Of a DNA stretch of 64,000 nt, positions 45,601-48,600 are shown in pieces; the first letter of the stretch is position 1; each line of letters opens with the position of its first letter. Source of the stretch: Octopus vulgaris. Taxonomy: Eukaryota. Below the pieces are notes generated by a model that saw only the letters and a list, made by a program, of their open reading frames with translations, had not been told where the DNA came from and did not search any database. The translations under genes were made by a program, and so were the position numbers. The stretch covers positions 81,592,001 to 81,656,000 of the forward strand of contig OX597817.1 in assembly GCA_951406725.2 (NCBI GenBank). The letters are read 5' to 3'.

Positions 45601-48600
45601 TTGTTAGATAGCAAGAATGTGGGAGAGGAAGAGAGAGCCAAGCATAGAGCATGGGGGAGTGTGAGAGATGTATGGTGATGGGCAAGGTGGGATGATTTGG
45701 TGGTTCAAAAGTGAAGGGGTCTATGTAAAATGTGAGTGGAGAAGACAGTATTAAGGATGAGGGGTAGATATCAATCAAACATCAGCTTGTATAATGTTTC
45801 ATGTTATTTTCCAGTTCCAAGAATCCTGAAGAAGAAGAATTGGAAGATATTTTAAATCAGGTGGTAAGTTGACTGCTTGTTGTTTACAGTAGAAAGCTTG
45901 GAGGAAATTGGCAGATGATATTGTCAGGAATATGGCATAATCAAATCCAAAGATATATTCTTCAATAAGCACAATGTTGTTTATAACTTAAGGTTTTTTT
46001 TCTCTACAACATTTATATCATCATTGTTGTCATCAACTGTGGCAGAATCGGTAGAGTAACAATCAATTATCTTATAGTATTTTGTTTTATGTTATTAGGT
46101 TTCGAGTTTAAATTCTGTTGAGGTTAACTTCATCCCAGCTGAAGCAGTGAGTGTAAACGGTAGATGCATTTCTGCTTTGTTGGGCATTGTCAATAGCATG
46201 TACTTGAATGTTAATGTAGCTGCTTGCCTAGACAAAATTTGTCACCACCGATATATAGGAAAACAGTGAATAAATGATCACTGATGTTGCAAATGGCTGC
46301 CCAGTTAGGATAATTTTCATCTGCCTCCAATACATGTTCTCTGGATGATTACCATAGTAAATTTACCATTCATGATGTATTTACATTACGTATGATACAT
46401 TGATGGCTATTTTAATCTAATAATGCTTCTGTTGCTTATAACAGATACATACATACATACATATACATATGCATACACTCACACACATACATGACAAGCT
46501 TCTTTCAGTTTCTCTCTACTGAATCCACTTGCAAAGCTTTGGTCAACCTTGAGCTATATTGGAAGACACCTGTGCAAGTTGTCTTGTGGAACTTAACTTG
46601 AAACTATGTGGTTAGGAATTGAACTTCTTAACCCCACTACCATACCTGCTATCTCTGTTTAATATTAAAAGAAAGTGAATTATTCTCCAAACCATACTTT
46701 CCATTGCTAAACAAAATGTGATGAAAATAAATTTGAGTGTTGAACAAAACTAAAATAAAACTTATATTACGGAGATGTACTTGCATAGCTAGTGATTTGA
46801 TCTGAGATCGTGTGCTGAAACGAAAACAATTGCAGCGTGGAAGGTGTTTGTAAGCCATTTAAGAAACACACAAAAGCCGTTCGATTCACCTCAACATTTA
46901 AGTTTAATTTGTCAAAATATTTTCGTCACTTTAAGACCGCGACCTGTTCACTGACAAAAATCCGTGCTGCCGGATTTTTGTCAGTGAACAGGTCGCGTCT
47001 TATAGCGACGAAAATATTTTGACAAATTAAACTTAAATGTTGAAGTGAATCGAACGGCTTTTGTGTGTTTCTTAAAACTTATATTGATTTCATATTTTAA
47101 GTATACTTTATTGACTGTTCTTATTAAAAATCCTTTTTAATATTCTTTAAAATTTTCTTTTAATAGATGATAGTTTTCAAATATATTGAAGACAAAGATG
47201 TCTTTCAGAAATTCTACAGTAAAAAGTTGGCCAAAAGACTAGTTCTGCACACATCAGCTAGCGATGATGCTGAAGCAAGCATGATATCGAAACTGAAGGT
47301 AAACTATCATTATTTTTCTGTTGGTACTGTTGCTTCAAGGTATTATATGAATTTCTAAAGACCATATCGCTGTGGGATGGAGAGTCGCTGAAGAGGTCAC
47401 AGGATGTGTGGTGAAAGATTTAAGACGAAGGACACAAAAACAAGAATAAAAATAAAGGCCATGAATTTTTTTTTTGACTGCTGGATGCTTTTGTTTACTA
47501 AGTTTGCCAAACAAAAGTAATTTGCTTTATCAAAGAACATAGTTCAATCTGTACCTGCCAGGAAAAATATGCCTGTTTAATTACCAAAACCATTCAGTGG
47601 GGCAAACAAGTATTCCCTTATGATTTCTCTTTAGTGTTTAACCCATAAGCATTCAAACCAGCCATATCTGGCTCAAATATTCTACCTGTTTCGTGTTCAA
47701 ACTGACTAAATCAGGCCTCTCACACCTACTGTGCAATGTCATTCTAAAAATAAACAGTTGCATCTTCAGAATCTCAAAGTTTAGAGATAATGCATGATTA
47801 ATTCAAAACAGAGATAATGTATGATTAATTAAATAAGTAATACATTTGACAGAATAATCTGAATGCTAAAGGGTTAAAATAAAAATCACATTATCTCTGA
47901 AATATTCTTTTCTACTCTTGGCACAAGGCCTGAAATTTTTGGGGAAGGAGGCCAGTTGATTAGATTGACCCCAGTATGCAACTGGTACTTAATTTATCGA
48001 CCCAGAAAAGATGAAAGGCGAAGTCGACCTTGGTGGGATTATCTCTGAAATATTATGACACTATGTCCACAATAAAATCAGGGTTACAGAGGAAGCAATC
48101 ACTTTTAAATGGTTGCTCGATATGCTTGTAAAAGCAACCAAACCTACTTTAAACCACACCCAAGTCCCTTAAAAAGGAAACATTGGATAAACTAATCTGG
48201 GGTATACTAATTACTGACTCTGAAAGGATAAAAGGTAAAGTTGACCCCGGTGGAGTATGAACTCAGAATGTAAAGATGGGTGAAATGCTGCTAAGCATTT
48301 TGCCCAGCATGCAAGCAATGCCGCCTTATTTGCAAATTAAGTTAACCTGAAATTTTGATAGAGGGTTTTAATTTAGATCTCTTTAAAACAGGAAGTTTGT
48401 ATCATAAAACGAAGAGCAATCAAAAGGGTTAAAATATTTAGTTTTTATCTCATATTTTTTCAGTTCAGATCTTCTCAGGATCAAACTTTGCATATCCACT
48501 TTTGGAGAGATTAATAAAATGAATTTCAGTGACAATCAGGGATTGACTAAATTAATTCTATTGAAAATATTTTCTGTTTTTTTTTTTCTGTGAAACTAAG

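What the first reader, a model, noticed from the sequence alone, without database searches (positions are those of the whole stretch)
46756..47085. Young 219-bp palindrome with 13-bp TSD encoding a G3-C8 hammerhead variant on both strands, 90 nt upstream of CUL1 exon 11
Seen: arms 46858-46964 and 46971-47076 differ by only 3 substitutions and 1 indel, with TSD TAAAACTTATATT. Each arm reads stem I TTTGTCA, GTGAACA, G, stem II GTCGC..GYGAC, GAAA, ATAT, T, T, stem I TGACAAA. Two of the arm differences fall in loop II and one keeps stem II as G-U. Established: the hammerhead core CUGANGA has a C3-G8 tertiary pair, and the C3G/G8C double swap partly rescues activity. Minimal Penelope hammerheads have a one-pair stem III with a palindromic tetraloop. 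Inference: a natural compensatory core variant with an extra base after A9 and a UUU triplet, which standard searches would miss. In CUL1 pre-mRNA the sense ribozyme is transcribed after its antisense arm and should be locked in a ~106-bp duplex. That duplex is a strong ADAR substrate near the acceptor at 47166, and editing could in principle loosen it.
Basis: partly seen in the sequence, partly recalled or inferred. Interest (0 to 1): 0.8.

Follow-up and report, generated by a model that had tools for sequence, protein, structure and literature searches.

The report
Octopus retrotransposon ribozyme with swapped core
This intron hairpin is one of over a thousand head-to-head scraps of an octopus Penelope-like retrotransposon, and the hammerhead-shaped RNA it carries has its core C-G pair flipped to G-C in thousands of copies, likely a natural, weakly cutting ribozyme variant that standard searches would miss, with no sign of a role for the host gene.

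Summary
Observation confirmed. The palindrome is not locus-specific. It is the 5' end of a Penelope-like retrotransposon (PLE) inserted head-to-head; at least 1,113 such palindromes and 7,391 exact core matches exist in this genome. The same motif lies about 1 kb downstream of an RT plus C-terminal GIY-YIG ORF in 9 of 10 parent loci. G3-C8 is the master state. The sister octopus family has C3-G8, relatives have C3-G8 or U3-A8, and 3-8 is Watson-Crick in 7 of 7 families with a motif in a scan that left those positions free. So the swap is a real compensatory core variant, and I found no natural example in the held literature (one key paper was unavailable). The extra base after A9 and the U17 site are already known PLE features. 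Cleavage is untested. Genomic copies come from uncut RNA. The CUL1/ADAR switch is unsupported and could not be tested. Side result: 53 of 57 palindromes have exactly one arm with the 'tail', a likely in-vivo footprint of two separately primed cDNAs.

The parts
46756..46768 (.). Target-site duplication, left copy (13 bp)
   Evidence: 11-13 bp duplications in 20 of 57 sister palindromes (counted by eye)
46769..46970 (-). Long arm: 5' end of the PLE transcript (5' UTR, hammerhead, first 30 codons of the ORF, including the 'tail')
   Evidence: 93-95% identical to the repeat flanking RT/GIY-YIG ORFs; 46965-46970 is element sequence
46769..46858 (-). Start of the PLE ORF (ATG at 46858-46856, 30 codons); resembles the N-terminus of the sister family's ORF
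   Evidence: translation; sister N-terminus; similarity judged by eye
46769..46825 (-). 'Tail': segment between the two common 3' ends (about element positions 140 and 196)
   Evidence: end positions in 57 palindromes
46908..46958 (-). Hammerhead-type motif with G3-C8 core, minus-strand copy (core 46951-46945; one G-U in stem II; predicted cut 46915|46914)
46971..47072 (+). Short inverted arm without tail; ends earlier than the usual short end; register continues to 47076 through overlap with the duplication
46977..47026 (+). Hammerhead-type motif with G3-C8 core, sense to CUL1 (core 46984-46990, extra G 46991, stem II 46992-46996 with 47005-47009, GAAA 47010-47013, predicted cut after 47019)
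   Evidence: matches the TCTTATA subfamily majority except for a 1-nt loop deletion
47073..47085 (.). Target-site duplication, right copy
47167..47298 (+). Host cullin-1-like exon (44 codons, AG/GT bounded); a neighbour, not part of the element

Best explanation
The insertion is a head-to-head pair of 5'-end fragments of an octopus Penelope-like retrotransposon, each carrying that family's hammerhead-shaped motif with the core 3-8 pair swapped to G3-C8; the motif is likely a slow ribozyme that needs a partner RNA or the element's own protein, and the hairpin likely arose when both target strands primed separate cDNAs on uncut element RNA. SHOWN: the link to an RT plus GIY-YIG ORF, fixation of G3-C8, compensated 3-8 changes between families, one long and one short arm per palindrome, and no excess of copies starting at the cut site. 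INFERRED: the element's protein nicks both strands about 12-13 nt apart and primes one cDNA near element position 196 and one near 140. Both run to a capped 5' end about 20 nt upstream of the core (TATA-like box at -28, Inr-like TCA+1G, extra G), and the two cDNA ends are joined. INFERRED: the ribozyme acts on element transcripts (trimming or limiting them), not in making the template. PREDICTED: in CUL1 pre-mRNA the sense motif is sequestered in the duplex and inert, so the insertion is a tolerated passenger.
For: The motif lies about 1 kb past the RT-EN ORF in 9 of 10 parent loci (domains). Core intact in 29 of 30 flank-anchored copies. Only 213 non-G3 matches against 7,391 G3-C8, and no C3-G8 among the first 100 listed (by eye). 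Sister family B (98/99 support) has C3-G8, compensated stems and 3,166 matches at the same place before its ORF. 3-8 is Watson-Crick in 7 of 7 families with a motif (G-C once, C-G three times, U-A three times), in a scan with no constraint on 3 or 8. Common variants (at least 10%) at 5 of 8 non-CpG loop II sites against none at the listed core positions. 53 of 57 palindromes have exactly one long arm and none has two. GAG replaces genomic CAG at 28 of 66 free 5' ends. In a lizard PLE the engineered C3G/G8C double mutant partly restores cleavage, cleavage needs the protein, both strands are nicked and extended, and uncut RNA is the template (PMC11167929, parts 1-2 read).
Against: No cleavage assay and no raw RNA reads. 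The folding model extends stem I with a G3-U17 wobble (-15.4 against -14.1 kcal/mol), which resembles the inactive 3-17 trap described in PMC3884650. It also does not favour the dimer (-28.8 against -30.8 for two monomers). Core plus stems against loop II plus other UTR is not significant for common variants (2 of 35 against 11 of 63, Fisher p 0.09), and that sample was partly chosen on the core. Relatives also carry C9 (family B, L280) and U5 (L281), so the clade may be under relaxed catalytic constraint. Only 1 of 37 classifiable palindromes has arms of different subfamilies (59% expected at random), so two RNA molecules are shown only occasionally. No motif was found in the flanks of L279, L282 or L113, nor in the L281 3' and L284 5' stretches.
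Confidence: 0.68

Rival explanations
1. The G3-C8 motif keeps the hammerhead fold for a non-catalytic job (protein binding, translation control in the 5' UTR) or is a decaying relic, and does not cut in vivo.
For: Copies derive from uncut RNA: an estimated 0.9-1.4% start at the cut site, similar to about 0.8-0.9% per nucleotide nearby (background by eye from 30 copies). Other core deviations occur in the clade. G3-U17 misfold. Low in vitro activity of metazoan PLE hammerheads (PMC4209133).
Against: Repeated compensation of the 3-8 tertiary pair across families is expected if the catalytic fold is selected. The lizard PLE ribozyme is active with protein although it is dispensable for insertion.
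Confidence: 0.25
2. One reading: the CUL1 intron hairpin is an ADAR-gated ribozyme switch affecting splicing or stability of the host transcript.
For: The sense motif is predicted to be fully paired to the other arm. Octopus has very high hyper-editing, and palindromic repeats are heavily edited in frog (PMC5625713 passages). Junction-like contigs occur in runs under three organism labels, and no empty-site joint is among the 15 of 91 joints shown.
Against: At least 1,113 equivalent palindromes arise as a by-product of insertion. The arm differences are explained without selection. The hairpin ends about 90 nt before the acceptor. Editing would hit the core's own adenosines (inference). A minimal motif would still need a partner.
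Confidence: 0.04
3. The palindrome forms by snap-back or template switching of a single cDNA, not by two separately primed cDNAs.
For: Arms are usually of the same subfamily (36 of 37 classifiable) and some pairs share rare variants.
Against: Copy-back would stop at variable places or reproduce the tail, yet the second arm ends in a narrow window (130-146) in 46 of 57 cases. Mixed-subfamily arms exist (L151, L009, L027; L147 by eye), and this locus pairs TCTTAAA with TCTTATA.
Confidence: 0.25
4. A foldback DNA element (MITE-like) or microRNA precursor in which the hammerhead likeness is accidental.
For: Rfam gives only sub-threshold miRNA-hairpin matches and no hammerhead family.
Against: The sequence is contiguous with an RT/GIY-YIG ORF, occurs as single, tandem and 5'-truncated copies, and has orthologous hammerheads in sister families.
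Confidence: 0.01

Closest known systems
Minimal type I hammerheads of metazoan Penelope-like elements (Cervera and de la Pena 2014, PMC4209133)
   Same: Located in the pLTR; extra nucleotide between 9 and 10.1; G10.1-C11.1; short palindromic helix III; often U17; found as dispersed single motifs and as opposite-strand pairs.
   Different: The core is GUGAACA. The published consensus is CUGANGAH with U3-A8 as the described covariant, and no G3-C8 row appears in the part of Fig. S2 that I read. The extra base here is G.
Natural U3-A8 hammerheads (Perreault 2011, PMC3088659; Schistosoma PLEs)
   Same: Compensatory change of the 3-8 tertiary pair; U3-A8 also occurs in relatives of this element and in a Neptune-like octopus family.
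   Different: Here it is a double transversion to G3-C8, which I found in print only as an engineered mutant.
PAc/Poseidon element of Anolis (Frangieh 2024, PMC11167929)
   Same: Hammerhead near the ORF start; two 3' ends inside the 5' part of the ORF defining a tail; AT-rich targets; uncut RNA as template.
   Different: PAc has wild-type C3-G8 and its ORF starts in stem II; here the ORF starts about 57 nt after the cut site, and the tail is about 55 nt.
C-terminal EN+ PLE clades Neptune/Nematis, and N-terminal EN+ Naiad (Craig 2021, PMC8557442)
   Same: RT, CX2-5CxxC linker, C-terminal GIY-YIG, inverted 5'-truncated copy, tail, (TA)n bias.
   Different: RT motif A to B spacing is 132 aa against 63 in a Neptune-like octopus ORF, and the motif is DKS. 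The passages read describe such an insertion for Naiad/Chlamys and some Coprina, not for C-terminal EN+ clades, so the clade is left unassigned.
Non-LTR retrozymes (bioRxiv 10.64898/2026.07.22.740005, part 1 of 5 read)
   Same: Non-coding, hammerhead-bearing derivatives of PLE pLTRs; some copies of this family are tandem (L003, L015, L021).
   Different: This locus is an inverted pair with a target duplication, not a tandem array.

Membership tests
Minimal PLE hammerhead (type I) | Core CUGANGA with C3-G8 | tested here: not met
   Core is GTGAACA; filed as a variant, not a canonical member
Minimal PLE hammerhead (type I) | Watson-Crick pair between positions 3 and 8, kept across relatives | tested here: met
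   7 of 7 families with a motif, unconstrained scan; tree
Minimal PLE hammerhead (type I) | U4 G5 A6 A9, G12 A13 A14, A15.1-U16.1, G10.1-C11.1, NUH triplet | tested here: met
Minimal PLE hammerhead (type I) | Extra nucleotide between 9 and 10.1, and short palindromic helix III | tested here: met
   extra G; self-complementary 6-mer; known features
Minimal PLE hammerhead (type I) | Lies in the pLTR of a PLE | tested here: met
   9 of 10 parent loci
Minimal PLE hammerhead (type I) | Site-specific self-cleavage (dimer or protein assisted) | not testable with these tools
   no raw reads; genomic 5' ends show no excess at the site
EN+ Penelope-like element | Single ORF with RT and GIY-YIG endonuclease | tested here: met
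   GIY-YIG 25.6 bits over cut-off 22.6; RT motifs YVDD and A/B; Pfam RVT_1 only weak, E 0.052
EN+ Penelope-like element | pLTR repeats, inverted 5'-truncated copy, tail on one end, AT/(TA)n targets | tested here: met
Neptune/Nematis clades | CX2-5CxxC linker before a C-terminal EN | tested here: met
Neptune/Nematis clades | No insertion between RT motifs A and B; DKG motif | tested here: not met
   132 aa against 63 aa; DKS (criteria)
Neptune/Nematis clades | Grouping with reference elements in an RT tree | not tested
   no reference PLE proteins available as tool sequences; one search used one partial Neptune-like row only
Naiad/Chlamys | N-terminal GIY-YIG; no canonical hammerhead | tested here: not met
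   EN at residues 877-967 of 987
Non-LTR retrozyme | Tandem units each with a hammerhead | tested here: not met
   inverted pair at this locus; tandem copies exist elsewhere
Rfam hammerhead or miRNA families | Score above gathering threshold | tested here: not met
   14 matches, all below gathering, none a hammerhead

The most novel reading that the evidence does not exclude
An actively amplifying, possibly undescribed PLE lineage (C-terminal endonuclease with a long RT fingers insertion) carries the first natural, working G3-C8 hammerhead in more than 7,000 copies, so that three of the four Watson-Crick options at the core 3-8 pair occur within one clade. Its 1,100-plus palindromic insertions record in vivo that PLE inverted repeats come from two cDNAs primed on opposite strands at two fixed sites, and they may be a notable source of perfect dsRNA for octopus hyper-editing.
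Probability: 0.35. Interest if true: 0.72.

Novelty: new variant of a known kind. Interest (0 to 1): 0.5.

Why it matters
C3-G8 is among the most conserved hammerhead contacts. In the papers I could read, natural covariation is U3-A8 only, and G3-C8 appears as a partly active lab mutant. A family that fixed G3-C8 and spread to thousands of copies gives a natural test of how much catalysis a PLE needs from its ribozyme, which is an open question. It also shows that CUGANGA descriptors and Rfam miss whole families. The long-arm/short-arm rule in the palindromes bears on another stated open question, how PLE inverted repeats and tails form. For CUL1 itself the finding is probably ordinary.

Tried and rejected
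Rfam scan: no hammerhead, only sub-threshold hairpin families. The 781-aa Neptune-like family as parent: rejected, no similarity in 20 GIY-YIG loci. A splice acceptor as the cause of the shared 5' end: first considered because upstream reads like a branch point plus CAG; set aside because free ends read GAG with no constant sequence further up, which fits a start site plus cap G better; neither reading is tested. A C3-G8 subfamily inside the family: none in 100 of 213 rows listed. An excess of copies beginning at the cut site: not found (40 loci of 118 matches examined). Empty-site allele: not among 15 of 91 joints shown; the junction contigs hold only 24-29 element letters, below the tool's 31-letter bridging rule, so presence in other organisms is a hint only, and X5 has no cover on the right flank. 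Earlier scan findings: none. Formal pair counting on the MAFFT alignment was dropped because two rows were out of register. Literature searches for a natural G3-C8 core or an octopus PLE hammerhead found none (mechanism searches). Lunse 2017 and Przybilski 2007 were not held, and either could change the novelty call. File 1 of the Cervera supplements was not searchable.

Full report
OBSERVATION. The arms, the four differences, the 13-bp duplication and both hammerhead-like readings are present as described. The downstream exon (47167-47298) is cullin-1-like; its number was not checked. The window has no other copy of the element. Rfam finds no hammerhead.

WHAT IT IS. The 196-nt minus-strand part is a high-copy repeat of a 2.8-Gb genome; a protein from the same genome is labelled Octopus vulgaris by its source. 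The core pattern has 7,391 exact matches and a reversed control has 0. [quoted passage not shown] Of 10 further loci chosen by the RT, 9 carry the motif about 1 kb after the ORF, and open frames reach 1,025 aa. The 3' 90 nt of the long arm are the first 30 codons of the ORF, similar by eye to the N-terminus of sister family B. This is the pLTR, tail and inverted-copy layout described for PLEs (PMC8557442, passages). The true insertion is 46769-47072.

IS G3-C8 REAL? Within the family it is the master state. 29 of 30 copies picked by flanking anchors have GTGAACA. There are only 213 non-G3 matches, with no C3-G8 among the 100 listed (by eye). Because dead copies share a master, this alone proves little, so I compared families. 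Family B (55% RT identity, sister with 98/99 support) has CTGATGC, a compensated stem II and a different stem I at the same place before its ORF, with 3,166 matches. A metagenome scan gave 9 related loci. A scan that left positions 3 and 8 free was run on 12 flanking stretches. It found a single motif site in each of 7 families and none in 5 stretches (L279, L282, L113, and one side each of L281 and L284). The pair is G-C in this family, C-G in B, L278 and L284, and U-A in L280, L281 and an unrelated Neptune-like family. The tree puts G-C beside C-G (A, B) and U-A beside C-G (L281, L284), though the L284 branch is long. Among 171 arms, common variants fall at 5 of 8 non-CpG loop II sites and at no listed core site. 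The two in stems are a gap in a T-run and a change to U-G. The pooled test is not significant (p 0.09), and part of the sample was chosen on the core.

WHAT IS ALREADY KNOWN. The extra base between 9 and 10.1, the palindromic helix III, the U3-A8 variant and low in vitro activity are described for PLE hammerheads (PMC4209133, parts 1-2 of 4 read). U17 is frequent in its Fig. S2, where the rows I read (part 2 of 3 of supplement file 2, plus search passages) show no G3-C8. PMC3088659 (passages) names U3-A8 as the natural covariant. The C3G/G8C double mutant partly rescues a lizard PLE ribozyme that cuts only with protein (PMC11167929, parts 1-2 of 4). PMC3884650 (passages) mentions an engineered G3-C8 variant and a 3-17 mispairing trap. 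Also seen: PMC6765202 (passages), PMC6155905 and PMC11014351 (term searches with nothing relevant), PMC2377424 (passages: the Drosophila Penelope promoter is TATA-less and internal), PMC5625713 (passages), the 2026 retrozyme preprint (part 1 of 5), and the Craig supplement (searches and part 57). Searches found no natural G3-C8 case. Lunse 2017 and Przybilski 2007 could not be read, so 'not described' is provisional.

HOW THE PALINDROME LIKELY FORMS. A palindrome pattern gives 1,113 forward and 1,114 reverse matches. I examined 58 loci from the first 100 rows (one listed locus was left out), and 57 gave a head-to-head pair. Of these, 46 have one long arm (ending at 185 or later) and one short arm (130-146), 7 have long plus other, 4 have no long arm, and none has two long arms. 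In the best-hit set 1 of 11 has two. By eye, 20 of 57 have 11-13-bp duplications, 23 sit in (TA)n, and 14 show 10 bp or less. Arms match in subfamily in 36 of 37 classifiable pairs, but mixed pairs exist (L151, L009, L027; L147 by eye), and this locus is one. At 94 distinct 5' junctions, 28 continue into upstream element sequence, and 28 of the other 66 read GAG where the element has CAG. A TATATAA lies at -28 from that A. I infer a capped start with the cap copied as an extra G; the Inr and TATA labels are recalled motifs and are untested. With the lizard data (both strands nicked and extended, two start sites, predicted dimer), the simplest model is two cDNAs, one per strand, joined at their far ends. 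Copy-back of one cDNA is the rival.

IS CUT RNA USED? Of 8,088 copies anchored just 3' of the predicted cut, 118 lack T at position 17. In 40 of those loci, 25 of 41 matches break there and 16 are point changes. That is about 0.9% of copies, or 1.4% allowing for a chance T, against roughly 0.8-0.9% per nucleotide in 30 unbiased copies (by eye). So templates are uncut, as in the lizard element. This does not show inactivity, but it removes a possible in vivo signal.

THE CUL1 LOCUS. In a fold of 46740-47200 the sense motif pairs with the other arm with mean probability 0.956. Alone, the arm forms stems I and II, but G3 pairs with U17, and neither the one-pair stem III nor my approximate dimer is favoured. 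The long arm differs from its subfamily majority at 3 of 196 sites. Contigs joining unique flank to 24-29 element letters occur on both sides in X1, X2 and X3 (organisms A, B, C) and on the left in X5. This is below the tool's bridging rule, and no empty-site joint was among the 15 of 91 shown. No raw RNA reads were available, so editing is untested. It is plausible in octopus but would also alter core adenosines (inference). Nothing marks this copy out from the other thousand.

VERDICT. A real, family-wide compensatory variant of the PLE minimal hammerhead, in an ordinary PLE insertion. Rough odds: PLE fragment 0.97; orthologous hammerhead with a swapped pair 0.93; measurable cleavage 0.6-0.7; host regulatory role 0.04. 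New variant of a known kind; interest 0.5.

Noticed in passing
L095:4970-8044 (-), L107:1262-5197 (+): The parent and sister PLE RTs have a 132-aa spacing between motifs A and B (63 in a Neptune-like ORF) and DKS, yet a C-terminal GIY-YIG; relatives at 44-54% identity occur in ENA assemblies. Possibly an undescribed PLE clade.
   Followed up: partly
L107:5717-5763: Sister family B, young with many intact 1,310-1,312-aa frames, has C9 in place of A9 in its hammerhead core in 3,166 matches; L280 also has C9 and L281 has U5.
   Followed up: partly
L042:2661-2708 and L038-L047, L049: A Neptune-like octopus PLE family (781-aa frames) carries a U3-A8 hammerhead-like motif without the extra base.
   Followed up: partly
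L145-L162, L168-L207: Strict one-long, one-short arm rule and occasional mixed-subfamily arms in head-to-head palindromes.
   Followed up: yes
L006 upstream of the motif; 94 junctions: Free 5' ends often read GAG where the element has CAG, with a TATA-like box at -28; likely a start site plus copied cap G.
   Followed up: partly
L003, L015, L020, L021: Tandem arrays of the roughly 200-nt unit separated by (TA)n, retrozyme-like, which could supply partner hammerheads in one transcript.
   Followed up: no
L081:1049-2107 (-): A Tc1/mariner-like transposase remnant is inserted in the 3' UTR of a parent PLE copy (family judged by eye).
   Followed up: no
window 14001-20000: Extreme GC skew and low GC, probably long microsatellite arrays.
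   Followed up: no
window 46780-46964 (-): A stop-free frame runs across the whole arm out of frame with the PLE ORF and is open in several copies; probably chance.
   Followed up: no
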